A program made the position numbers and the translations under genes. A DNA stretch of 26,221 bases from a virus. Lineage: Duplodnaviria > Heunggongvirae > Uroviricota > Caudoviricetes. The DNA is taken from positions 1 through 26,221 of the IMG/VR virus record IMGVR_UViG_2617270943_000001. One strand, given 5' to 3'. Shown here one piece after another: positions 1 through 22,199 of this stretch. Below the pieces are notes generated by a model that searched no databases, was not told where the DNA came from, and saw only the letters and a program-made list of their open reading frames with translations. Every line of letters begins with the position of its first letter. Within the stretch, counting starts at the first letter, position 1.

Positions 1-1164
1 TTACGCCTTCTTTATATCCTCCATAATTCCAGAGTGGGACATATTTGGGACATTATCACCAAAAATGTCGTCTATTTTCCTCGCATGCTCTGTCAAATGA
101 TTAGGCGCAAGGTGAGCATACCTACGAACCATTTCTATGGACTCCCATCCGCCCATTTCCTGAAGCACTGATAATGGGACGCCTGACTGAATCAGCCAGC
201 TTGCCCAGGTGTGTCTGAGGTCATGGAAACGGAAATCTTCAATTCCTGCACGACGACAAGCTGATAGCCATGATGTCTTGCTGTCGATGCGCATCTTCCT
301 GACCGCAGGCGTTGATGTTCCATCTGCTCGCTTAGCCGCCTTGGTATGTACAAACACCCATTTGTGATGCTTGCCTATTTGATCACGCAACACTTTACAG
401 GCGGTATCGTTCAGCGCCACACCAATGGCGCGGTTTGATTTGCTCTCTTCTGGATTCACCCAGGCAACTCGTCGCTGCATGTCGATTTGTTGCCATTCCA
501 GATTTATGATGTTCGACTTTCTCAGACCAGTTGCCAGCGCAAACTTGACGACAGATTTCAGTGGTTCGGGGCACTCATCAATAAGGCGTTTTGCTTCCTC
601 CTTTTCCAGCCATCTGACTCGCTTGTTTCTGACCGCTGGTATCTTGATGACAGGCGCTTTTTCCAGCCACTTCCAGTCGCGTTCTGCAGCACGGAGAATG
701 GCCTTTATCATGGCAAGATGCTTTGCCTTTGTCTGAGTTGATACTGGCTTTGGTTCATAAACAGGCGGTTCTTTACCTTTCCTGATGGCGGCCTGAACTT
801 TCTGTTTCCATATTTCTTTCGTCTTTCTGTTATGCATTCTGCTTACAGCAGAGTAAATCTTTGCCTCCGAGATATCTTTAAGCCTTATACCCTCAAAATG
901 TTCAAGCCAGAACTCAATCCGGCTTTTATCTGAATCGAGAGATTTTTTATCAGCTTTTTCCTCAAGCCATCTTAGGCAGGCCTCTTCAAAAGTGACATCA
1001 GGTAAATCCCCTAGCTTTTCTACTCGCCAGAGTTCTGCTTTTCGCTTGTCGTGCAACTCCTGAGCTTGCCGCTTGTCCTTTGTGCCAAGAGATTCCTTAA
1101 TTCGTTTCCCGCCCGGGAGCGAATACGAGGCATACCATATTTCATTTCTGCGGAAGAGTGACAT
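1..1164 (-). CDS. int: Tyrosine-type site-specific integrase, 387 aa
   Basis: Complete ORF on minus strand; C-terminal HDLRHTWAS...VRRYAHL block matches the tyrosine recombinase box II pattern (His-x-x-Arg...Tyr); sits at the prophage end next to an excisionase-like gene. Stop codon is at window position 1-3, so attL lies outside the window. Confidence 0.9.
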
Positions 1165-6377: not shown

Positions 6378-6917
6378 ATGCAACCACTTCCATACCAACA
6401 GACTAGCGGATTTAGCCCGACTGCGGTGATAAATCGTTCTCAAACAAAACAGGTGCCAGGCCACGAAAAAATCCGTGATGCCGTCCGCGCCTGGTCGGCT
6501 GTAGATAATCAGGATGTCGTTGCCACACTCATTGTGAATGAGTATCGGGAGCAGGGCGGCGGCACCATCGATTTCCCTGATGATGTCAGCCGTGCACGCC
6601 AGAAGCTGTTCCGCTTCCTCGATAACAAATTCGATTCTGAAAAATACCGAAATAACGTGCGTGAACTGACCCCGGCAATTCTGGCGGTACTAACGCTGGA
6701 ATATCGCGGTTACCTGGTTGAGCAGGATAGCTTCATGGCCAGGTTGGCTGAAATGGAAAAGGAACTCAGTGAGGCAAAACAGGCTGTCATTCTCAACGCA
6801 CCACGCCACCAGAAACTGAAGGAAATTAGTGAAGGTATTGTATCGATGTTTCGTGTGGACCCAGATCTGGCTGGTCCATTGATGGCGATGGTTACTACCA
6901 TGCTGGGGGCGATATGA
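6378..6917 (+). CDS. YdaT-family protein in the cII position, 179 aa
   Basis: Conserved blocks YREQGGG and ELTPAILAVLTLEYR resemble Rac prophage YdaT as I recall it; located between cro and O; AGGAG Shine-Dalgarno. Confidence 0.65.
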   Translation: MQPLPYQQTSGFSPTAVINRSQTKQVPGHEKIRDAVRAWSAVDNQDVVATLIVNEYREQGGGTIDFPDDVSRARQKLFRFLDNKFDSEKYRNNVRELTPAILAVLTLEYRGYLVEQDSFMARLAEMEKELSEAKQAVILNAPRHQKLKEISEGIVSMFRVDPDLAGPLMAMVTTMLGAI

Positions 6918-7003
6918 CAGGTTCAGAAATGGCGAAAGCCGGTCTGCTGGAACAGAACCGACTTTCAGGTGCAAATCGTAACACACTCATTGCGGGAGGA
7001 ATT

Positions 7004-7933
7004 ATGGCAAACACTGCTGAGATATTCAATTTTCCAGTGCCGGATGCGGCACAAAAGGAGCCGCGCGTGGCAGATCTCGATGATGGTTATACGCGCATTG
7101 CAAATGAGTTGCTGGAAGCTGTGATGCTGGCCGGATTAACACAGCACCAGCTTCTGGTCTTCCTGGCTGTCATGCGCAAAACATATGGCTTTAATAAAAA
7201 ACTGGATTGGGTGAGCAACGAGCAACTGTCCGGATTGACCGGGATATTACCGCACAAGTGTTCTGCTGCAAAAAGTGTTCTGGTAAAGCGTGGGATTTTG
7301 ATTCAGAGCGGGCGGAATATCGGTATTAATAATGTGGTCAGTGAATGGTCAACATTACCCGAATCAGGTAAGAAAAATAAAGTTTACCTGAAAGAGGTAA
7401 ATTTACCTGAATCAGGTAAGAAAAGTTTACCCAAATCAGGTAAAGGCGTTTACCCGAATCAGGTAAACACAAAAGACAAACTAACAAAAGACAATATAAA
7501 ACCTTTTTCGTCCGAGAATTCTGGCGAATCCTCTGACCAACCAGAAAACGATCTTCCTGTGGTGAAACCAGATGCTGCAATTCAGAGCGGCAGCAAGTGG
7601 GGGACAGCAGAAGACCTGACCGCCGCAGAGTGGATGTTTGACATGGTGAAGACCATCGCACCATCAGCCAGAAAACCGAATTTTGCAGGGTGGGCTAACG
7701 ATATCCGCCTGATGCGTGAACGTGACGGACGTAACCACCGCGACATGTGCGTGCTTTTCCGCTGGGCATGCCAGGACAACTTCTGGTCCGGTAACGTGCT
7801 AAGTCCGGCCAAACTCCGCGACAAGTGGACCCAACTCGAAATCAACCGTAACAAGCAACAGGCAGGCATGATAGCCAGCAAACCAAAACTCGACCTGACA
7901 AACACTGACTGGATTTACGGGGTGGATTTATGA
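7004..7933 (+). CDS. O: Replication initiator O (start at internal ATG 7004 with GGGAGGA Shine-Dalgarno)
   Basis: C-terminal about 100 aa (AEWMFDMVKTIAPSARKPNFAGWANDIRLMRERDG...TNTDWIYGVDL) is near-identical to lambda O; N-terminal domain is O-like; contains ori iterons internally. Confidence 0.9.
   Translation: MANTAEIFNFPVPDAAQKEPRVADLDDGYTRIANELLEAVMLAGLTQHQLLVFLAVMRKTYGFNKKLDWVSNEQLSGLTGILPHKCSAAKSVLVKRGILIQSGRNIGINNVVSEWSTLPESGKKNKVYLKEVNLPESGKKSLPKSGKGVYPNQVNTKDKLTKDNIKPFSSENSGESSDQPENDLPVVKPDAAIQSGSKWGTAEDLTAAEWMFDMVKTIAPSARKPNFAGWANDIRLMRERDGRNHRDMCVLFRWACQDNFWSGNVLSPAKLRDKWTQLEINRNKQQAGMIASKPKLDLTNTDWIYGVDL
7356..7468 (+). repeat. Origin iterons: five tandem copies of about 18 bp (TTTACCCGAATCAGGTAA-like), followed by an A-rich tract
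   Basis: Direct repeats at about 7356, 7383 (degenerate), 7402, 7426 and 7448 inside O, followed by ACACAAAAGACAAACTAACAAAAGACAATATAAAAC, mirroring the lambda ori layout. Confidence 0.75.
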
Positions 7934-8631
7934 AAAACATCGCCGCACAGATGGTTAACTTTGACCGTGAGCAGATGCGTCGGATCGCCAACAACATGCC
8001 GGAACAGTACGACGAAAAGCCGCAGGTACAGCAGGTAGCGCAGATCATCAACGGTGTGTTCAGCCAGTTACTGGCAACTTTCCCGGCGAGCCTGGCTAAC
8101 CGTGACCAGAATGAACTGAACGAAATCCGCCGCCAGTGGGTGCTGGCTTTTCGGGAAAACGGGATCACCACAATGGAACAGGTTAACGCTGGAATGCGCG
8201 TAGCCCGTCGGCAGAATCGACCATTCCTGCCATCACCCGGGCAGTTTGTCGCCTGGTGCCGGGAAGAAGCATCCGTTACCGCCGGGCTGCCAAACGCCAG
8301 CGAGCTGGTTGATATGGTTTACGAGTATTGCCGGAAGCGCGGGCTGTATCCGGATGCAGAGTCTTATCCGTGGAAATCAAACGCGCACTACTGGCTGGTT
8401 ACCAACCTGTATCAGAACATGCGGGCCAATGCGTTGACTGACGCGGAATTACGGCGCAAGGCTGCCGATGAACTGTCCTGTATGACCGCACGAATTAACC
8501 GTGGTGAGGCTATACCTGAACCAGTAAAACAACTTCCTGTCATGGGCGGTAGACCTCTAAATCGTGCACAGGCTCTGGCGAAGATCGCAGAAATCAAAGC
8601 TAAGTTTGGGCTGAAAGGAGCAAGGGTATGA
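7930..8631 (+). CDS. P: Replication protein P (DnaB helicase loader), 233 aa
   Basis: Translation MKNIAAQMVNFDREQMRRIANNMPEQYDEKPQVQQVAQ... is near-identical to lambda P; ATGA overlap with the O stop. Confidence 0.95.
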   Translation: MKNIAAQMVNFDREQMRRIANNMPEQYDEKPQVQQVAQIINGVFSQLLATFPASLANRDQNELNEIRRQWVLAFRENGITTMEQVNAGMRVARRQNRPFLPSPGQFVAWCREEASVTAGLPNASELVDMVYEYCRKRGLYPDAESYPWKSNAHYWLVTNLYQNMRANALTDAELRRKAADELSCMTARINRGEAIPEPVKQLPVMGGRPLNRAQALAKIAEIKAKFGLKGARV

Positions 8632-8930
8632 CGGGCAAAGAGGCAATTATTCATTACCTGGGGACTCATAAGAAATTCTGTGCGCAGGACGTTGCCGCGG
8701 TAACAGGCGCAACGGTAACCAGCATAAATCAGGCTGCGGCTAAAATGGCACGGGCAGGTCTTCTGGCTATCGAAGGTAAGGTCTGGCGAACGGTGTATTA
8801 CCGGTTTGCTACCAGAGAAGAACGGGAAGGAAAGGTGAGCACGAATCTGATTTTTAAGGAGTGTCGCCAGAGTGCCGCGATGAAACGGGTATTGAGGGTA
8901 TATAAAAGAACATCAATGGGTACACAATGA
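8628..8930 (+). CDS. ren: Ren protein, 100 aa
   Basis: Translation MTGKEAIIHYLGTH...AAKMARAGLL...VWRTVYYRFATREEREGK matches lambda Ren; overlaps the P stop. Confidence 0.85.
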   Translation: MTGKEAIIHYLGTHKKFCAQDVAAVTGATVTSINQAAAKMARAGLLAIEGKVWRTVYYRFATREEREGKVSTNLIFKECRQSAAMKRVLRVYKRTSMGTQ

Positions 8931-8997
8931 TGAAACAGGTGAGTTGAGTTCAAACTGTAGTACAATTCTCTCCAGTTTGAACAGGAAAGAATATTCT

Positions 8998-9330
8998 ATG
9001 AACCCTTATATTTATCTTGGTGGTGCAATACTTGCAGAGGTCATTGGTACAACCTTAATGAAGTTTTCAGAAGGTTTTACACGGTTATGGCCATCTGTTG
9101 GTACAATTATTTGTTATTGTGCATCATTCTGGTTATTAGCTCAGACGCTGGCTTATATTCCTACAGGGATTGCTTATGCTATCTGGTCAGGAGTCGGTAT
9201 TGTCCTGATTAGCTTACTGTCATGGGGACTTTTCGGCCAACGGCTGGACCTGCCAGCCATTATAGGCATGATGTTGATTTGTGCCGGTGTGTTGGTTATT
9301 AATTTATTGTCACGAAGCACACCACATTAA
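8998..9330 (+). CDS. emrE: SMR-family multidrug efflux transporter EmrE, 110 aa
   Basis: Translation MNPYIYLGGAILAEVIGTTLMKFSEGFTRLWPSVG... matches E. coli EmrE (the DLP12-borne gene) with four predicted TM helices; ATG at 8998 preceded by AGGAAAG. Confidence 0.9.
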   Translation: MNPYIYLGGAILAEVIGTTLMKFSEGFTRLWPSVGTIICYCASFWLLAQTLAYIPTGIAYAIWSGVGIVLISLLSWGLFGQRLDLPAIIGMMLICAGVLVINLLSRSTPH

Positions 9331-9361
9331 AAATAATTTGTTTCTAAACGACTAAAATATG

Positions 9362-9394
9362 GAGGCTCTTATATTTATATGAGCCTCGTTTTAT
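9362..9394 (+). terminator. Rho-independent terminator after emrE
   Basis: GAGGCTC-loop-GAGCCTC hairpin followed by GTTTTATGCTTTTTG. Confidence 0.5.
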
Positions 9395-9584
9395 GCTTTT
9401 TGTTAATGTCTTTATTTTTTATGTATTCTTTTGTGCTTTCAAGATTATGGCGTAAGAAAATTGCAATACGATTATTGTTGTATATTCAAGATAATGTGAC
9501 CTTAATTGTCTTTTTAAATAAAAATTAAACAAAATTATATCCCACCACTAAGGTTTATAAAAGCATACGTTAGCAGGTGTCACC

Positions 9585-11111
9585 ATGAAAAAAGCCATAG
9601 CATATATGCGATTTTCATCACCAGGTCAGATGTCTGGCGACTCATTAAACCGACAGAGAAGACTTATTGCTGAATGGTTAAAGGTAAATAGTGATTATTA
9701 TCTTGATACCATAACATATGAAGATTTAGGATTAAGTGCATTCAAAGGAAAGCATGCACAATCAGGAGCTTTTTCGGAATTTTTAGATGCTATAGAGCAT
9801 GGTTATATATTGCCAGGAACTACATTGTTAGTTGAAAGTCTGGACAGACTTTCAAGAGAAAAAGTCGGTGAAGCGATTGAACGTCTGAAATTGATTTTGA
9901 ATCACGGTATTGATGTTATAACTCTTTGCGACAATACAGTCTATAATATTGACTCTTTGAATGAGCCATATTCATTAATAAAAGCCATACTTATAGCACA
10001 AAGGGCAAATGAAGAAAGCGAGATAAAGTCAAGTCGGGTTAAATTATCATGGAAGAAAAAACGGCAGGATGCACTGGAATCAGGTACGATTATGACGGCG
10101 TCTTGTCCGAGATGGCTCTCCTTAGATGACAAAAGAACGGCTTTTGTTCCAGACCCCGACAGGGTGAAAACTATTGAGCTAATTTTTAAACTCAGGATGG
10201 AAAGGCGCTCATTGAATGCAATAGCCAAGTATTTAAATGATCATGCTGTAAAGAATTTCTCAGGAAAAGAAAGTGCATGGGGACCTTCTGTAATTGAAAA
10301 ATTATTAGCGAATAAAGCTCTGATAGGTATATGCGTACCTTCATATCGTGCAAGAGGTAAAGGAATAAGTGAAATCGCTGGCTATTATCCCAGAGTCATA
10401 TCAGATGATTTGTTTTACGCTGTACAGGAAATTCGGTTGGCACCTTTTGGTATTAGCAATAGTAGCAAAAATCCTATGTTGATAAATCTACTTCGAACAG
10501 TTATGAAGTGCGAGGCTTGTGGTAATACCATGATTGTTCATGCGGTATCTAGAAGTTTGCATGGCTATTATGTTTGTCCGATGAGAAGACTGCATCGATG
10601 TGACAGGCCATCAATAAAGAGAGATTTGGTTGATTATAATATCATTAATGAGTTGCTTTTTAATTGTAGTAAAATCCAACCAGTTGAAAACAAGAAAGAT
10701 GCTAATGAAACTTTAGAGTTGAAAATTATTGAGCTCCAGATGAAAATTAATAATTTAATTGCTGCATTATCTGTTGCGCCTGAAGTTACCGCTATAGCAG
10801 AAAAAATCAGAGTATTAGATAAGGAATTACGAAGGGCTTCTGTATCATTAAAAACTTTGAAGAGTAAAGCGGTGAGTTCACTTGGTGATTTTCATGCTAT
10901 TGACTTAACCAGTAAAAATGGGCGAGAGCTATGTCGTACACTTGCCTATAAAACATTCGAAAAAATCATAATCAATACAGATAATAAAACCTGTGATATC
11001 TATTTTATGAATGGCATTGTTTTTAAACACTATCCTTTAATGAAAACAATATCCGCCCAGCAGGCGATAAGTACTCTCAAATATATGGTTGATGGTGAGG
11101 TTTATTTTTGA
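9585..11111 (+). CDS. ybcK: Large serine recombinase (resolvase/invertase-type N-terminal domain with recombinase and zinc-ribbon extension), 508 aa
   Basis: N-terminal AIAYMRFSSPGQ with catalytic-Ser context and LLVESLDRLSR motif; C-terminal CxxC...C cluster; AT-rich codon usage; resembles DLP12 YbcK. Confidence 0.8.
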   Translation: MKKAIAYMRFSSPGQMSGDSLNRQRRLIAEWLKVNSDYYLDTITYEDLGLSAFKGKHAQSGAFSEFLDAIEHGYILPGTTLLVESLDRLSREKVGEAIERLKLILNHGIDVITLCDNTVYNIDSLNEPYSLIKAILIAQRANEESEIKSSRVKLSWKKKRQDALESGTIMTASCPRWLSLDDKRTAFVPDPDRVKTIELIFKLRMERRSLNAIAKYLNDHAVKNFSGKESAWGPSVIEKLLANKALIGICVPSYRARGKGISEIAGYYPRVISDDLFYAVQEIRLAPFGISNSSKNPMLINLLRTVMKCEACGNTMIVHAVSRSLHGYYVCPMRRLHRCDRPSIKRDLVDYNIINELLFNCSKIQPVENKKDANETLELKIIELQMKINNLIAALSVAPEVTAIAEKIRVLDKELRRASVSLKTLKSKAVSSLGDFHAIDLTSKNGRELCRTLAYKTFEKIIINTDNKTCDIYFMNGIVFKHYPLMKTISAQQAISTLKYMVDGEVYF

Positions 11112-11255
11112 GTAATAATCACTTTTTCAACCGTGCTATAGTAAGAAAGTTAGGTAAGTACATTTAGACTGGCCCCCTGAATCTCCAGACAACCAATATC
11201 ACTTAAATAAGTGATAGTCTTAATACTAGTTTTTAGACTAGTCATTGGAGAACAG

Positions 11256-11621
11256 ATGATTGATGTCTTAGGGCCGGAGAAACGCAGACGGCGTACCACA
11301 CAGGAAAAGATCGCAATTGTTCAGCAGAGCTTTGAACCGGGGATGACGGTCTCCCTCGTTGCCCGGCAACATGGTGTAGCAGCCAGCCAGTTATTTCTCT
11401 GGCGTAAGCAATACCAGGAAGGAAGTCTTACTGCTGTCGCCGCCGGAGAACAGGTTGTTCCTGCCTCTGAACTTGCTGCCGCCATGAAGCAGATTAAAGA
11501 ACTCCAGCGCCTGCTCGGCAAGAAAACGATGGAAAATGAACTCCTCAAAGAAGCCGTTGAATATGGACGGGCAAAAAAGTGGATAGCGCACGCGCCCTTA
11601 TTGCCCGGGGATGGGGAGTAA
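11256..11621 (+). CDS. insC: IS2 transposase OrfA (InsC)
   Basis: Translation [47 protein letters not shown]... with HTH; ends just after the AAAAAAG slippery heptamer at 11573..11579. Confidence 0.9.
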
Positions 11622-12484
11622 GCTTAGTCAGCCGTTGTCTCCGGGTGTCGCGTGCGCAGTTGCACGTCATTCTCAGACGAACCGATGACTGGATGGATGG
11701 CCGCCGCAGTCGTCACACTGATGATACGGATGTGCTTCTCCGTATACACCATGTTATCGGAGAGCTGCCCACGTATGGTTATCGTCGGGTATGGGCGCTG
11801 CTTCGCAGACAGGCAGAACTTGATGGTATGCCTGCGATCAATGCCAAACGTGTTTACCGGATCATGCGCCAGAATGCGCTGTTGCTTGAGCGAAAACCTG
11901 CTGTACCGCCATCGAAACGGGCACATACAGGCAGAGTGGCCGTGAAAGAAAGCAATCAGCGATGGTGCTCTGACGGGTTCGAGTTCTGCTGTGATAACGG
12001 AGAGAGACTGCGTGTCACGTTCGCGCTGGACTGCTGTGATCGTGAGGCACTGCACTGGGCGGTCACTACCGGCGGCTTCAACAGTGAAACAGTACAGGAC
12101 GTCATGCTGGGAGCGGTGGAACGCCGCTTCGGCAACGATCTTCCGTCGTCTCCAGTGGAGTGGCTGACGGATAATGGTTCATGCTACCGGGCTAATGAAA
12201 CACGCCAGTTCGCCCGGATGTTGGGACTTGAACCGAAGAACACGGCGGTGCGGAGTCCGGAGAGTAACGGAATAGCAGAGAGCTTCGTGAAAACGATAAA
12301 GCGTGACTACATCAGTATCATGCCCAAACCAGACGGGTTAACGGCAGCAAAGAACCTTGCAGAGGCGTTCGAGCATTATAACGAATGGCATCCGCATAGT
12401 GCGCTGGGTTATCGCTCGCCACGGGAATATCTGCGGCAGCGGGCTTGTAATGGGTTAAGTGATAACAGATGTCTGGAAATATAG
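11579..12484 (+). CDS. insD: IS2 transposase OrfB (InsD; DDE catalytic domain, expressed by -1 frameshift fusion to OrfA)
   Basis: The ORF is in the -1 frame relative to insC and overlaps it by 43 nt; sequence matches IS2 InsD as recalled, with the DDE catalytic core expected for an IS3-family OrfB. Confidence 0.9.
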
Positions 12485-12558
12485 GGGCAAATCCAACATT
12501 AAAATTATCTATCCTGAACGAAGCGTCCTGAGCTATGGTTTTACTATAGAGACTGCCA

Positions 12559-12882
12559 ATGGATGCTGGCGTTCTCGTTCTAGCAGTTCAACAATACCCA
12601 ATCACAAAACAATTCACTGATAACGAACTTTGCACACTCGCCTGGTTATGGCGAGCAGGGAATGTGATGTTAATTACCTACCAGAACGTTACTCCTCTTC
12701 TTCAGGTTGCGGAGCATCGTGAAGCTGGTCGCTTCACTTCTATCGAGCAAGAATATCCCCAGATACTCAATAAGGCACAGGCAATCCTTGCCAGAGAAAC
12801 GGCACATGTAAAATTCCGGCCGTGGCAGGATGATAAGTGGAGTCGAGTTTTGCCGCATTTACGTTCGGATCGATTACAGTAG
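12559..12882 (+). CDS. Hypothetical protein, 107 aa (orphan ORF immediately right of IS2)
   Basis: ORF with ordinary codon usage; no recognisable motif; not a lambda nin-region gene. Confidence 0.4.
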   Translation: MDAGVLVLAVQQYPITKQFTDNELCTLAWLWRAGNVMLITYQNVTPLLQVAEHREAGRFTSIEQEYPQILNKAQAILARETAHVKFRPWQDDKWSRVLPHLRSDRLQ

Positions 12883-13343
12883 ATTCCAATTAACAATGAG
12901 AAACACATAGCCACCCCGTGGTATTGAAACCATATAATGTTGGATTTGAAAACAGATCTTTTTCCATGTATTAATAACTACATCCCCGCGAGTGATTCAA
13001 AAAGGAGGGCCCAATTTTGTCCGAGTTTTTGTATTCCCCCGCATGCCGCTGCGGAGCACTACATCTGAGTGTCTGACTAGGGGATAAAATTAGACTGGAT
13101 AGTGAGAAGAAAGTGGCGTGCTAGGCTGTGCCGAGTGCTACCAGTACACCCTGGGGGTGTGCAGCTTTCGCCGAGACTGTAGTGGGTATCGGTTAATGCA
13201 CGAAAAACCGAGAGGTCAGACAACCAATTTGCCGTAGGATTGTTTCCGGTGCGATACCGGTGTACTAACTGAAAGCAATGCGAAAAAGCATAAACTCGGT
13301 CCTTCAGTCGCCCTACACACTATTTACTAAGAAGGGCTAAAGC

Positions 13344-13700
13344 ATGGATACAATTATCACATGGATGGGAGATCGTCTGTTGGGGTGGATAACAAACAAA
13401 TCCGATCTGCGGCAGAGGGCAATCACTGGATTAACTCCTGCGATTTATTCAACAATTTTATATACTGAAAAATTAAAACGTGGTGAGCCTAATAACCCAA
13501 ACGAAGAAGAAAAACTTTATAGGCTTTGGTATGAAGCGTCTTCCCAAGTCGTAGACTTTGATCGAGAGCTGGCTAAAAGATGTTTAGATAAATCAGAATA
13601 TTGGCTTCATTCTGAATTATATAGCCCTGAGAAAGTTGGAGAGCTAAACATTTCTTTGGTTGGTATGAAGGCAACGCTTGAAGGAATAAAGCACAATTAA
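13344..13700 (+). CDS. Hypothetical protein, 118 aa (AT-rich orphan ORF)
   Basis: ORF with AAGGG Shine-Dalgarno-like sequence upstream, preceded by a GC-rich structured leader; low-GC codon usage suggests foreign origin. Confidence 0.45.
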   Translation: MDTIITWMGDRLLGWITNKSDLRQRAITGLTPAIYSTILYTEKLKRGEPNNPNEEEKLYRLWYEASSQVVDFDRELAKRCLDKSEYWLHSELYSPEKVGELNISLVGMKATLEGIKHN

Positions 13701-13887
13701 AACCTTTGATTTGCGATAATCAACTCGCCATAATCATGTCATCGGAGCCTGAACAACTCCGGTGACTTCTGCGCTAAACGGGGACGTTTATGCGCACACA
13801 CAATCCAAACTCTCTTCTCCCTCCAAAGATGCAGAAATGCACCTGCGATATATTGTATCCAGCGTTTGACCTCTGCGGAGGTGAAGC

Positions 13888-14343
13888 GTGAATCTCCCAC
13901 AAGATGGCATCAAATTACATCGCGGTAACTTCACCGCTATCGGTCGGCAGATCCAGCCTTATCTGGAGGAGGGCAAATGCTTTCGCATGGTGCTTAAACC
14001 GTGGCGTGAGAAACGCAGTCTTTCCCAGAATGCACTCAGCCACATGTGGTACAGCGAAATCAGTGAATACCTCATCAGCAGGGGTAAAACGTTCGCTACT
14101 CCAGCTTGGGTAAAAGATGCTCTCAAACACACATATCTCGGTTATGAAACCAAAGACCTGGTTGATGTTGTAACCGGTGATATCACCACTATCCAGTCGT
14201 TACGCCATACCTCCGATCTTGATACCGGAGAGATGTATGTCTTCCTGTGTAAGGTTGAAGCCTGGGCGGTGAATATTGGCTGCCACCTGACTATTCCGCA
14301 GAGCTGCGAGTTCCAGCTGCTCCGCGACAAGCAGGAGGCGTAA
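13888..14343 (+). CDS. ybcN: NinB-like protein (YbcN family), 151 aa
   Basis: Translation [27 protein letters not shown]...[13 protein letters not shown] matches DLP12 YbcN and the NinB family RSLxQN motif; GTG start. Confidence 0.8.
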
Positions 14344-20377: not shown

Positions 20378-20923
20378 ATGGAAGTCAACAAAAAGCAGCT
20401 GGCTGACATTTTCGGTGCGAGTATCCGTACCATTCAGAACTGGCAGGAACAGGGAATGCCCGTTCTGCGAGGCGGTGGCAAGGGTAATGAGGTGCTTTAT
20501 GACTCTGCCGCCGTCATAAAATGGTATGCCAAAAGGGATGCTGAAATTGAGAACGAAAAGCTGCGCCGGGAGGTTGAAGAACTGCGGCAGGCCAGCGAGG
20601 CAGATCTCCAGCCAGGGACTATTGAGTACGAACGCCATCGACTTACGCGTGCGCAGGCCGACGCACAGGAACTGAAGAATGCCAGAGACTCCGCTGAAGT
20701 GGTGGAAACCGCATTCTGTACTTTCGTGCTGTCGCGGATCGCAGGTGAAATTGCCAGTATTCTCGACGGGATCCCCCTGTCGGTGCAGCGGCGTTTTCCG
20801 GAACTGGAAAACCGACATGTTGATTTCCTGAAACGGGATATCATCAAAGCCATGAACAAAGCAGCCGCGCTGGATGAACTGATACCGGGGTTGCTGAGTG
20901 AATATATCGAACAGTCAGGTTAA
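20378..20923 (+). CDS. nu1: Terminase small subunit Nu1, 181 aa
   Basis: Translation MEVNKKQLADIFGASIRTIQNWQEQGMPVLRGGGKGNEVLYDSAAVIKWYA... is near-identical to lambda Nu1 (NohD-type). Confidence 0.95.
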   Translation: MEVNKKQLADIFGASIRTIQNWQEQGMPVLRGGGKGNEVLYDSAAVIKWYAKRDAEIENEKLRREVEELRQASEADLQPGTIEYERHRLTRAQADAQELKNARDSAEVVETAFCTFVLSRIAGEIASILDGIPLSVQRRFPELENRHVDFLKRDIIKAMNKAAALDELIPGLLSEYIEQSG

Positions 20924-22199
20924 CAGGCTGCGGCATTTTGTCCGCGCCGGGCTTCGCTCACTGTTCAGGCCGGAGCCACAGACCGCCGTTGAATGGGCGG
21001 ATGCTAATTACTATCTCCCGAAAGAATCCGCATACCAGGAAGGGCGCTGGGAAACACTGCCCTTTCAGCGGGCCATCATGAATGCGATGGGCAGCGACTA
21101 CATCCGTGAGGTGAATGTGGTGAAGTCTGCCCGTGTCGGTTATCTGGATTTTTTCAAAGGCGAGATAGGGAAAACCCATCTGGCTCAGGAGCTGTGGACG
21201 CAGATTGATAACGGTCAGCTTGCGCCTGACCTGACTGAAATCAGGACGTCCATAACGGATGTCAGCAATGAAATAACGCAGACCGTCAATAAGAAACTGG
21301 AAGACCAGAGTGCAGCGATCCAGCAGATACAGAAGGTTCAGGTTGATACAAATAATAACCTGAACAGCATGTGGGCAGTGAAGCTGCAGCAGATGCAGGA
21401 CGGACGCCTTTATATTGCGGGTATCGGTGCCGGTATTGAGAACACCCCTGACGGCATGCAGAGTCAGGTGCTGCTGGCAGCAGACAGGATTGCGATGATT
21501 AATCCTGCGAATGGCAACACAAAGCCGATGTTTGTTGGTCAGGGCGATCAGATATTCATGAATGAAGTGTTCCTGAAACGCCTGACGGCCCCCACCATTA
21601 CCAGCGGCGGTAATCCTCCGGCATTTTCCCTGACATCAGACGGGAGACTGACGGCGAAAAATGCGGATATCAGTGGCAGTGTGAATGCGAACTCAGGAAC
21701 GCTCAACAATGTCACGATTAACCAGAACTGTACGATTAAGGGCATGCTGGAGGCGACCCAGGTCAGAGGAGATTTCGTTAAAGCTGTATCAAAAGCCTTC
21801 CCGAAAAAAGTCGGTACATGGGGTAACACGGAAACACCAAACGGTACGGTTACAGTCACCATCAGCGATGATCATAACTTTGACCGCCAGATTATTATTC
21901 CGCCCATTATTTTTAACGGTATAGCGTATGACGATCCGGGGAGCGGAAATAACCCAGGAGGCACGCGATACACGGGTTATGGTTTTGAAGTTCGCAAAAA
22001 CGGCGTATTAATCGCATCCAGAGAAACTAAAGGGGCCATTCCCGGTAGTTACAGTGCAGTTATTGATATGCCCAGTGGCAGGGGAAGCGTCACTCTGGAG
22101 TTTAAGATTTTCCAGAAAGGCAATCAGGGGGCAGGCAATATCACCGACTGTACGGTGATTGTGACCAAAAAAGCCGCTTCCGGCATCAGTATTCGTTGA
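20898..22199 (+). pseudogene. Chimeric in-frame ORF: terminase large subunit A N-terminus (about 82 aa) fused to the C-terminal about 350 aa of tail-tip host-specificity protein J
   Basis: Residues 1-82 (MNISNSQVNRLRHFVRAGLRSLFRPEPQTAVEWADANYYLPKESAYQEGRWETLPFQRAIMNAMGSDYIREVNVVKSARVGY) match lambda A; the remainder (...WAVKLQQMQDGRLYIAGIGAGIENT...SGGNPPAFSLT...VNANSGTLNNVTI...) matches the lambda J C-terminal region; junction near 21144. Start overlaps nu1 by 26 nt as in lambda. Confidence 0.75.

What the first reader, a model, noticed from the sequence alone, without database searches (positions are those of the whole stretch)
8998..11111. Efflux gene emrE paired with a large serine recombinase: possible remnant of a nested mobile element
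Large serine recombinases normally integrate or excise their own element. Finding one next to a drug-efflux cargo gene inside a prophage that already has a tyrosine integrase suggests a second element nested in the prophage, or a recombinase recruited for inversion or excision control. No flanking att-like repeats were identified by eye.
Basis: inference. Interest (0 to 1): 0.4.

Follow-up and report, generated by a model that had tools for sequence, protein, structure and literature searches.

The report
emrE and orphan serine recombinase YbcK
This is the long-annotated emrE–ylcJ–ybcK accessory block of DLP12/lambda-like E. coli prophages: a drug-efflux gene followed by an intact large serine recombinase of unknown target, with no sign that the two form a nested mobile element.

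Summary
8998-9330 encodes EmrE (SMR pump) and 9585-11111 encodes a 508-aa large serine recombinase (LSR), the E. coli K-12 protein YbcK. Both lie in a low-GC stretch between ren and the nin genes of a defective lambdoid prophage that has its own tyrosine integrase (1-1164).

The block is common and already annotated. It occurs in about 1,400 of 5,426 complete E. coli genomes and in 12 isolated, viable lambda-like phages, always as P-ren-emrE-ylcJ-ybcK.

The "remnant of a nested element" reading is only partly supported:
- The two genes are separable. About 2,250 genomes carry emrE without ybcK, and YbcK relatives in other genera never have emrE.
- No att-like inverted or direct repeats exceed chance, and the right edge of the ybcK segment differs between contexts.
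- ybcK is not decaying. Its catalytic residues are invariant, 85 of 86 sampled alleles are intact, and dN/dS is about 0.07.

YbcK-family genes recur as solitary genes in accessory zones of phages, plasmids and a conjugative element across Enterobacterales. In the three contexts where an integrase could be seen (this window, phage Turner, Pantoea L010), the phage has a separate tyrosine integrase.

Best reading: two independent accessory cassettes. emrE is a lysogen-expressed moron. YbcK is an active-looking orphan LSR that is silenced in lysogens, and its DNA substrates remain unknown.

The parts
1..1164 (-). IntD-like tyrosine integrase of the host prophage (context: the prophage's own integrase)
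   Evidence: 387-aa ORF, Pfam Phage_integrase E=5.5e-47
8628..8930 (+). ren (Ren-like exclusion protein); last conserved phage gene to the left of the block
   Evidence: PHROG 142 at 1.8e-41. Homology with Stx-phage ren ends at about 8903
8921..9338 (+). emrE cassette as a mosaic segment (promoter/leader, CDS, 8 bp of 3' flank)
   Evidence: This exact stretch is the only part shared (about 90-92% identity) with the ybcK-less emrE-ybcL-ybcM islet next to fliE. About 2,250 genomes break at 9337/9338
8948..8982 (+). 13-nt inverted repeat upstream of emrE (GTTCAAACTGTAG ... CTCCAGTTTGAAC); emrE-associated, not an LSR att site
   Evidence: pair I13, 92% complementary. It is conserved with emrE in locus L002, which lacks ybcK
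8998..9330 (+). emrE CDS, SMR proton-coupled multidrug/QAC efflux pump
   Evidence: Pfam PF00893 3e-35; PHROG 1395 'moron' 5e-58; 98-100% identical to annotated EmrE
9339..9584 (+). AT-rich (28% GC) leader of ybcK. It contains the hairpin and ylcJ, and corresponds to the untranslated region reported to hold a Rho/NusG-dependent terminator (t_ybcK) in K-12
   Evidence: GC. Left mosaic breakpoint. Rho-dependent termination upstream of ybcK from PMC4150792
9362..9387 (+). Stem-loop GAGGCTC..GAGCCTC followed by a T-rich tract: probable intrinsic terminator after emrE
   Evidence: pair I24. RNA fold gives -15.5 kcal/mol, z=-2.6. It was not flagged by the simple terminator scan, whose loop criterion it fails
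9379..9528 (+). ylcJ, 49-aa hydrophobic small ORF
   Evidence: Pfam YlcJ 2.4e-35. It is frameshifted in the near-identical strain DXMF6-3R and in phage Turner, so it is probably dispensable
9585..11111 (+). ybcK, intact 508-aa large serine recombinase: catalytic domain about 1-127, long helix E 128-166, recombinase domain about 178-285, Zn ribbon about 300-345, coiled coil about 346-430, C-terminal beta-rich part 444-508
   Evidence: Pfam, PHROG, alignment A1, AlphaFold model and Foldseek hits to full-length serine integrases. dN/dS about 0.07
11112..11164 (+). Short 3' flank that travels with ybcK; beyond it the sequence differs between phage lineages
11165..12495 (+). IS2 insertion (unrelated later event) with 5-bp target duplication ACATT (11160-11164 and 12496-12500)
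   Evidence: It is absent at this spot from phages Turner and Perceval, from K-12 and from 80 IMG/VR loci
12559..12882 (+). P22AR_C-domain ORF (truncated Ant/Roi-like); first gene of the variable stretch between ybcK and ybcN/ninB
   Evidence: Pfam P22_AR_C 1e-15; PHROG 7640 and 245. It is one of four alternative right-hand contexts

Best explanation
The interval is the emrE-ylcJ-ybcK accessory block that DLP12-type and lambda-like E. coli phages carry between ren and the nin genes of the early-right operon. It consists of two independent cassettes, not one nested element.

(1) emrE is a self-contained moron: its own leader, the CDS, then a terminator hairpin. It is expressed in the lysogen and exports cationic compounds by proton antiport. 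This function is established knowledge for EmrE and is inferred here from 98% identity.

(2) ybcK encodes an intact large serine recombinase with every catalytic and DNA-binding module. It is not the integrase of this prophage; the tyrosine integrase at 1-1164 fills that role. It is insulated from emrE transcription by the hairpin and by a published Rho/NusG-dependent terminator in its AT-rich leader. It should therefore be silent in lysogens and be made mainly when N-antiterminated PR transcription runs through after induction (inferred).

It is kept by strong purifying selection in viable phages, so it most likely performs serine-recombinase chemistry (cut, 180-degree subunit rotation, religation at a 2-bp core) on sites that are not arranged as flanking repeats around the block. 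Those sites are still unidentified.

Shown: identity, architecture, intactness, selection, distribution, mosaic boundaries, absence of flanking repeats. Inferred: expression logic and catalytic activity. Unknown: substrates and biological role.
For: Gene identities and domains. Fold: AlphaFold mean pLDDT 78.8; Foldseek full-length hits to serine integrase-att complexes, PhiC31, Bxb1 and the A118-type LSR (E 3e-19 to 4e-11). Catalytic residues: in 17 family members down to 41% identity, R9, S11, D87, R88, R91, the helix-E motif and four Zn-ribbon Cys are invariant, and S11 aligns with the TP901-1 RVS motif. Selection: 85 of 86 alleles are intact 508-aa ORFs and median dN/dS is 0.073. Prevalence: the junction is intact in 1,402 of 5,426 complete E. 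coli genomes and in 12 isolated phages. Fixed position: all 80 IMG/VR loci show P-ren-emrE-ylcJ-ybcK on the left and four alternative right contexts. Separability: emrE occurs alone next to fliE with ybcL-ybcM, and no emrE or ylcJ lies beside YbcK relatives in other genera. Other recombinases: a tyrosine integrase is in the window, and phage Turner has a tyrosine Int, a small invertase and YbcK. Silencing and expression: PMC4150792 reports Rho/NusG-dependent termination upstream of ybcK; PMC9928086 reports EmrE as a Perceval moron, and no recombinase is mentioned in that paper's text. Hairpin fold. Low GC.
Against: No substrate site was found, so recombinase activity is inferred from sequence only. 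The simple scans found no convincing sigma-70 promoter for either gene above shuffle expectation. A clean 2,083-bp presence/absence difference (ylcJ+ybcK+about 310 bp) between K-12 DLP12 and the fliE-side emrE-ybcL islet could still reflect an old insertion of a ybcK unit. In other genera, near-identical ybcK-type units sit in unrelated contexts, which hints at mobility of its own. One paper reports a physiological phenotype (sabinene tolerance) for ybcK overexpression and deletion that this model does not explain (PMC7181518).
Confidence: 0.6

Rival explanations
1. One reading: emrE and ybcK together are the remnant of a second mobile element, mobilised by the serine recombinase, that inserted into the prophage and carried emrE as cargo.
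For: The low-GC stretch of about 8921-11160 contrasts with roughly 50-57% GC in the flanks. The block lies between conserved phage genes and its left edge coincides with the ren stop codon. In other genera, YbcK relatives often sit beside cargo genes such as an autotransporter, umuDC, or SDR/methyltransferase genes.
Against: emrE and ybcK have different distributions and a sharp internal breakpoint at 9338. emrE never accompanies YbcK relatives elsewhere. No terminal inverted or direct repeats exceed chance (best inverted repeat 8 bp; the 9-bp direct repeat has an expected count of about 1). The right boundary is not constant. The block is never seen at another site in 80 viral loci or in the sampled E. 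coli genomes. ybcK is intact and constrained, so it is not a relic.
Confidence: 0.1
2. ybcK, with its short flanks, is itself a minimal self-mobile unit: a single-gene serine-recombinase element that inserts into accessory zones of phages and plasmids. emrE is merely its neighbour.
For: The YbcK clade is scattered across different positions of unrelated elements: the nin region, the position after the tail-fibre assembly gene at prophage ends, plasmids, and a conjugative element. In Pantoea loci L018 and L028, only the gene plus about 220 bp upstream and about 60 bp downstream is shared at 94% identity in unrelated contexts. L010/L023 and L006/L013 behave similarly. There is a 2,083-bp indel between K-12 and locus L002. 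The E. coli-proximal members keep a low GC (0.36-0.43).
Against: There are no conserved or inverted terminal motifs within or between loci. E. coli shows no second insertion site among the sampled genomes and loci. The same pattern is produced by ordinary moron shuffling through illegitimate recombination. The ends of the shared unit differ between comparisons.
Confidence: 0.12
3. YbcK is a second integrase or an excision controller for the phage, for example integration at a secondary attB, or excision or inversion of a prophage segment.
For: It has full serine-integrase architecture. Some relatives lie at a prophage end next to host genes: ssrA in L006, lepA in L091, purB in L017.
Against: Every sampled E. 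coli locus (80 IMG/VR loci and the rows listed) has the gene internal to the prophage with phage DNA on both sides, so no prophage permuted at a site near ybcK was seen. The window, phage Turner and Pantoea L010 all have a tyrosine integrase. No inverted or direct site pairs occur in the window or in the complete Turner genome. Turner already has a Pin-like invertase beside its tail fibre genes. Prophages at tRNA/tmRNA 3' ends are typical of tyrosine integrases (established knowledge).
Confidence: 0.08
4. YbcK has been co-opted for a role other than mobility, such as attacking or rearranging competing phage or plasmid DNA, or a regulatory or physiological role in the host.
For: The gene is strongly conserved in phages that do not need it for integration. 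It sits in accessory zones where defence and exclusion genes cluster, next to ren. Small serine recombinases PinQ and PinR were recently linked to phage defence (PMC12529663). A sabinene-tolerance phenotype is reported (PMC7181518).
Against: There is no PADLOC match for YbcK or its neighbours. The published Rho-dependent silencing in lysogens argues against a constitutive host-protective role. There is no direct evidence.
Confidence: 0.1

Closest known systems
emrE-ylcJ-ybcK of E. coli K-12 cryptic prophage DLP12 (and of phages 4A7, Perceval, Turner, 1W/3W/D2)
   Same: Same genes, order, orientation and position after P-ren. YbcK is 97.8% and EmrE 98% identical at protein level; the DNA is about 97% identical.
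   Different: Here the right flank is the P22AR_C/orf13344 type rather than K-12's ybcL-ybcM, and an IS2 has landed 49 bp after ybcK. K-12 instead has an IS3 in ren.
Phage serine integrases (PhiC31, Bxb1, TP901-1, A118/LI Int)
   Same: Same domain order (catalytic domain, helix E, recombinase domain, Zn ribbon with embedded coiled coil). The catalytic Ser/Arg/Asp set is conserved. Foldseek gives full-length matches with E 3e-19 to 4e-11.
   Different: Sequence is very distant: no PDB hit by phmmer, and TP901-1 only at E=0.013 with a profile. The gene is internal to the prophage and not next to a phage-host junction. The phage uses a tyrosine integrase. No attP-like site was identified and no RDF is known.
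Serine-recombinase transposons and cassettes (Tn4451 TnpX, Tn5397 TndX, SCCmec Ccr)
   Same: A large serine recombinase associated with resistance or accessory cargo inside another mobile element. This resemblance is recalled from general knowledge, not tested against their sequences.
   Different: No defined ends, no terminal inverted repeats, no alternative insertion sites in E. coli, and cargo and recombinase are evolutionarily separable.
Small serine DNA invertases of prophages (Pin, Gin, Cin, PinQ/PinR)
   Same: Shares the serine-recombinase catalytic domain, and some YbcK relatives lie just after tail-fibre assembly genes, where invertases usually sit (PHROG 125 hit 2e-21).
   Different: 508 aa with recombinase, Zn-ribbon and coiled-coil domains instead of about 190 aa with a C-terminal HTH. 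No inverted sites or invertible segment. Phage Turner carries a separate small invertase.
Lambdoid phage morons (bor, lom, sitABCD, and EmrE in Perceval)
   Same: Low-GC, self-contained genes lying between conserved phage modules. EmrE is explicitly reported as a Perceval moron (PMC9928086).
   Different: ybcK is not reported as expressed in lysogens and is Rho-silenced, so it is moron-like in placement only.

Membership tests
Large serine recombinase (serine integrase) family | N-terminal resolvase-type catalytic domain with nucleophilic Ser and the conserved Arg/Asp residues | tested here: met
   Pfam Resolvase 7e-19. R9, S11, D87, R88 and R91 are invariant in 17 homologues, and S11 aligns to the TP901-1 RVS motif.
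Large serine recombinase (serine integrase) family | Recombinase domain plus zinc-ribbon domain with four Cys | tested here: met
   Pfam PF07508 2e-14 and PF13408 1e-7. C309, C312, C331 and C339 are invariant.
Large serine recombinase (serine integrase) family | Coiled-coil motif embedded in the C-terminal domain and an overall LSR fold | tested here: met
   The AlphaFold model has helices 346-364, 367-397 and 402-430. Foldseek gives full-length hits to serine integrase/att complexes, PhiC31, Bxb1 and 4KIS, all with probability 1.00.
Large serine recombinase (serine integrase) family | Cognate att sites (imperfect dyads around a 2-bp core), usually adjacent to the gene | tested here: inconclusive
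   No repeat or dyad above chance was found in 8880-9600 against 11090-11500, in the whole window, or in the Turner genome. No flank motif is conserved across 21 loci. A single unpaired attP-like site cannot be recognised without a partner.
Large serine recombinase (serine integrase) family | Catalyses integration, excision or transposition | not testable with these tools
   Needs in vivo or in vitro recombination assays.
Discrete LSR-mobilised element carrying emrE (nested element) | Recombinase and cargo co-inherited as one unit with constant ends | tested here: not met
   emrE occurs without ybcK in about 2,250 genomes with a break at 9337/9338, and YbcK relatives never have emrE. The right edge differs between the K-12, Perceval and Turner lineages.
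Discrete LSR-mobilised element carrying emrE (nested element) | Occurrence at more than one insertion site, or filled/empty site pairs with att-like junctions | tested here: not met
   All 80 IMG/VR loci and all listed E. coli genomes show the same P-ren-emrE-ylcJ-ybcK position. The only filled/empty pair (K-12 against L002) concerns ybcK alone, at about 90% flank identity, with no att-like symmetry.
Small serine DNA invertase (Pin/Gin/Hin type) | Protein of about 190 aa with a C-terminal HTH, acting on inverted sites that flank an invertible segment | tested here: not met
   YbcK is 508 aa with LSR domains. No inverted site pairs were found.
SMR family transporter EmrE | Four-TM protein of about 110 aa matching the SMR profile, with the essential membrane-embedded Glu14 | tested here: met
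   Pfam PF00893 3e-35 over residues 3-94. The sequence MNPYIYLGGAILAEV... has E14. It is 98% identical to K-12 EmrE.
Phage moron (autonomous accessory unit) | Lies between conserved phage modules with deviant composition and is dispensable for the phage | tested here: met
   GC is 28-42% against 47.5%. Many lambdoid and Stx phages go from ren to the nin genes without the block.
Phage moron (autonomous accessory unit) | Expressed from its own promoter in the lysogen | not testable with these tools
   The literature reports this for emrE (PMC9928086) and reports Rho-dependent silencing for ybcK (PMC4150792). The promoter scan here was uninformative.

The most novel reading that the evidence does not exclude
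YbcK-family proteins are a distinct Enterobacterales clade of large serine recombinases. They would behave either as single-gene, self-inserting units that colonise accessory zones of phages, plasmids and conjugative elements, or as phage-encoded recombinases made during lytic growth that act in trans on other DNA. Either case would be a role for serine integrases outside classical prophage integration. It would also explain why the gene is kept under strong purifying selection in phages that, where an integrase could be seen, have a separate tyrosine integrase.
Probability: 0.15. Interest if true: 0.6.

Novelty: already known. Interest (0 to 1): 0.25.

Why it matters
As a genome feature it is ordinary. 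The emrE-ybcK neighbourhood is annotated in E. coli K-12 and in many phages, and EmrE is one of the best-studied transporters.

What remains open is YbcK. It is an intact, strongly constrained large serine recombinase present in about a quarter of complete E. coli genomes and in viable lambda-like phages, and its function and DNA targets are unknown. Finding its sites would add a Gram-negative serine recombinase, distant from the usual PhiC31/Bxb1 toolbox, to genome-engineering reagents. It could also show why some temperate phages carry a second or third site-specific recombinase. The phage-borne emrE is a reminder that temperate phages move a QAC/cation efflux determinant between E. coli strains.

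Tried and rejected
- **Flanking att-like repeats.** I ran a custom diagonal scan on the IS2-less reconstruction and the repeat finder with a 7-nt seed. Only 7-9-bp matches appeared. The 9-bp direct repeat ACATTAAAA (9324 and 11160) has an expected count of about 1 and partly coincides with the IS2 target duplication, so I rejected it.
- **The 15-nt inverted repeat 9686-9700 / 11113-11127.** One arm lies inside ybcK, and it is one of 31 comparable pairs in 2.5 kb of AT-rich DNA. I treated it as noise.
- **Conserved flank motifs or terminal repeats across 21 YbcK-clade loci.** None were found.
- **Long-range site pairs.** None were relevant in the whole window or in the complete genome of phage Turner.
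- **Rfam scan of 8500-13900.** No hits.
- **PADLOC defence models.** No hits for YbcK, EmrE, YlcJ, Ren or the two downstream ORFs.
- **PDB sequence search.** It found no meaningful homologue: none by phmmer, and the top profile hits were spurious RING2 matches on the Zn ribbon. Fold comparison was needed instead.
- **An integron-like idea** (cassettes captured just downstream of ybcK). I considered it because the variable region starts right after the gene. I rejected it because the variants differ at several points, not at one site.
- **Tail-fibre invertase idea.** It was prompted by relatives lying after tail-fibre assembly genes. I rejected it because other genes intervene (autotransporter, umuDC), no opposed gene segments exist, and Turner has its own small invertase.
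- **Literature.** Searches found no functional study of YbcK as a recombinase.
Full report
**Observation.**
- 8998-9330 (+) encodes a 110-aa SMR transporter (Pfam Multi_Drug_Res 3e-35). It is 98% identical to K-12 EmrE and keeps Glu14.
- 9585-11111 (+) encodes a 508-aa protein with the Resolvase, Recombinase and Zn_ribbon_recom domains of a large serine recombinase. It also matches PHROG 95 'integrase' at 5e-120.
- A 49-aa ORF, ylcJ, lies between them at 9379-9528.
- The window is a lambdoid prophage. It holds a tyrosine integrase at 1-1164 (-), exo/bet, a CI-like repressor, O (6914-7933), P (7930-8631) and ren (8628-8930). After the block come a NinB-like gene (13888-14343), a porin and lysis genes.
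- An ORF fusing the terminase N-terminus to the tail-tip J C-terminus (20898-22199) shows that the prophage is defective.
- GC falls to 28-42% between about 8930 and 11200, against 47.5% for the window.

**Identity.** This is the emrE-ylcJ-ybcK block known from the K-12 cryptic prophage DLP12.
- The 2.7-kb region matches annotated emrE/ylcJ/ybcK at 96-99.8% identity. At least 80% of it is present in 1,399 of 5,426 complete E. coli genomes.
- A junction probe (9250-9760) is intact in 1,402 genomes.
- Twelve isolated lambda-like phage records (Turner, Perceval, 4A7, Lambda_4C10, 1W, 3W, D2 and PhiR phages) carry it. It is therefore compatible with a fully functional phage.
- In 80 IMG/VR viral contigs the left context never changes: P-ren-emrE-ylcJ-ybcK. 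The stretch between ybcK and ybcN/ninB comes in four versions: P22AR_C only, with orf13344 added (as here), with an alpha/beta hydrolase added, or a 268-bp piece plus ybcL-ybcM as in K-12.
- An IS2 (11165-12495, target duplication ACATT) has inserted 49 bp after ybcK in this window only.

**Are the two genes one unit? No.**
- The stretch 8921-9338 (emrE with its leader and 8 bp of 3' flank) is the only part shared with a second emrE locus. That locus is about 90% identical and is found in about 2,250 genomes.
- There, emrE is followed directly by ybcL-ybcM in a small islet between fliE and yedF. The islet looks like a decayed nin-region remnant. Homology to the window stops at 9337/9338.
- Compared with that islet, K-12 has an extra 2,083 bp (ylcJ, ybcK and about 310 bp) between emrE and ybcL.
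- In the window lineage, however, similarity to K-12 fades within 40-90 bp after the ybcK stop. The ybcK segment therefore has no constant right end.
- None of about 20 YbcK-clade loci from other genera contains emrE or ylcJ.

**Is the recombinase a relic? No.**
- In an alignment of 17 family members down to 41% identity, R9, S11, D87, R88 and R91 (motifs YxRFS and ESLDRLSRE), the helix-E motif and four zinc-ribbon cysteines are invariant. S11 aligns with the nucleophile motif of the TP901-1 integrase.
- Of 86 E. coli alleles sampled, 85 are intact 508-codon ORFs. Median dN/dS is 0.073, and 0.06-0.10 for the window against K-12, Perceval and Turner.
- An AlphaFold model (mean pLDDT 78.8) shows a catalytic domain, a long helix E, a recombinase domain, a zinc ribbon, a three-helix coiled coil and a C-terminal beta-rich part.
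- Foldseek aligns the model full-length to serine integrase-att complexes, PhiC31, Bxb1 and the Listeria LSR-DNA complex, with E from 3e-19 to 4e-11.
- By sequence the family is far from all solved LSRs.

**Are there att sites or rearrangements?**
- The 13-nt inverted repeat at 8948-8982 travels with emrE even where ybcK is absent, so it belongs to emrE's leader.
- The hairpin at 9362-9387 looks like emrE's terminator.
- No flank motif is conserved among 21 YbcK-clade loci, and none has terminal repeats.
- No site pairs exist in the window or in the complete Turner genome.
- Turner encodes a tyrosine integrase, a small Pin-like invertase next to its tail-fibre genes, and YbcK. Integration and tail-fibre inversion are thus already provided for.

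**The wider family.**
- Full-length relatives (37-61% identity) are confined to Enterobacterales: Atlantibacter, Yersinia, Erwinia, Pantoea, Ewingella, Citrobacter, Kluyvera and Lonsdalea. Beyond them only generic LSRs at about 30-35% identity are found.
- The relatives are solitary genes in accessory zones:
  - the nin region of lambdoid prophages, for example Pantoea L010 (which has its own tyrosine integrase) and Atlantibacter L013;
  - just after tail-fibre or assembly genes at prophage ends, next to ssrA, lepA or purB, or separated from them by an autotransporter or umuDC;
  - beside a shufflon-type pilV-like gene in a conjugative element;
  - among metabolic or efflux genes on Pantoea and Duffyella plasmids.
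- Some near-identical copies share only the gene plus about 60-220 bp of flank in otherwise unrelated contexts (L018/L028 at 94%). In Ewingella a umuDC+LSR block is 93% identical between prophages whose tail genes are 63-67% identical.
- This fits ordinary moron shuffling. It also leaves room for self-mobility, but no ends can be defined.

**Regulation and literature.**
- Both genes point the same way as the PR early-right operon.
- PMC4150792 reports a Rho/NusG-dependent terminator in the untranslated region upstream of ybcK, with ybcK mRNA rising in rho and nusG mutants.
- PMC9928086 lists EmrE as a moron of phage Perceval that is induced in DMEM, and does not mention a recombinase.
- PMC7181518 calls ybcK function-unknown and reports that its overexpression raises, and its deletion lowers, sabinene tolerance in BL21(DE3).
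- No paper in the library tests YbcK as a recombinase. PADLOC and Rfam give nothing.

**Conclusion.**
- The best-supported reading is two independent accessory cassettes in the ren-nin variable zone. emrE is a lysogen-expressed efflux moron. YbcK is an intact orphan large serine recombinase, silenced in lysogens and probably made after induction, whose substrates are unknown.
- The nested-element reading is only partly supported: the DNA looks foreign, but there is no unit, there are no ends, and there is no decay. The inversion or excision-control reading has no support.
- The residual interest lies in what YbcK recombines.

Noticed in passing
window 11165-12495: A complete IS2 with the 5-bp target duplication ACATT lies 49 bp downstream of ybcK. 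It is absent at this position from related phages, from K-12 and from 80 IMG/VR loci, so it is a recent private insertion.
   Followed up: yes
window 20898-22199: A single ORF joins a terminase gpA N-terminal fragment to the tail-tip protein J C-terminus. This implies deletion of the head and most tail genes, so the prophage is defective like DLP12.
   Followed up: partly
L002 6001-8150 (E. coli GN04133, between fliE and yedF): About 2,250 complete E. coli genomes carry a second, roughly 90%-identical emrE in a fixed chromosomal islet: emrE-ybcL-ybcM, then IS200 and a truncated SRAP gene. It has no ybcK and looks like a fossil lambdoid nin region.
   Followed up: partly
window 9379-9528: ylcJ is intact here but frameshifted in the 99.9%-identical strain DXMF6-3R and in phage Turner. 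The small ORF overlaps the emrE terminator hairpin and may not be under protein-level constraint.
   Followed up: partly
L176 (phage Turner) 5212-6375, 11795-12385, 43488-45014: One viable lambda-like phage encodes three site-specific recombinases: a tyrosine integrase, a small serine invertase beside its tail-fibre genes, and the large serine recombinase YbcK.
   Followed up: partly
L015/L016 8064-11935; L018/L028 about 9780-11583: In Ewingella a 3.9-kb umuDC+LSR block is 93% identical between prophages whose flanking tail genes are only 63-67% identical. In Pantoea the LSR gene with about 220 bp upstream and about 60 bp downstream is 94% identical in unrelated contexts. Both are sharp module boundaries with no recognisable repeats.
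   Followed up: partly
L093 8145-11530 (Citrobacter koseri): A YbcK relative lies divergently next to a 555-aa protein with a faint Shufflon_N (PilV-like) match, in a region that also has TraD and MobA/MobL genes. Shufflons normally use a tyrosine recombinase.
   Followed up: no
L175 3244-4000 (E. coli HS-01 DLP12): This DLP12 copy matches the junction probe only from window 9605 onward, so it lacks emrE, ylcJ and the first bases of ybcK homology. The cause (deletion, replacement or assembly error) was not examined.
   Followed up: no
window 7355-7471: Three to four roughly 22-nt direct or palindromic repeats (TTACCCGAATCAGGTAAGAAAA) lie inside the O gene. They are most likely the ori iterons of the lambdoid replication origin.
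   Followed up: no
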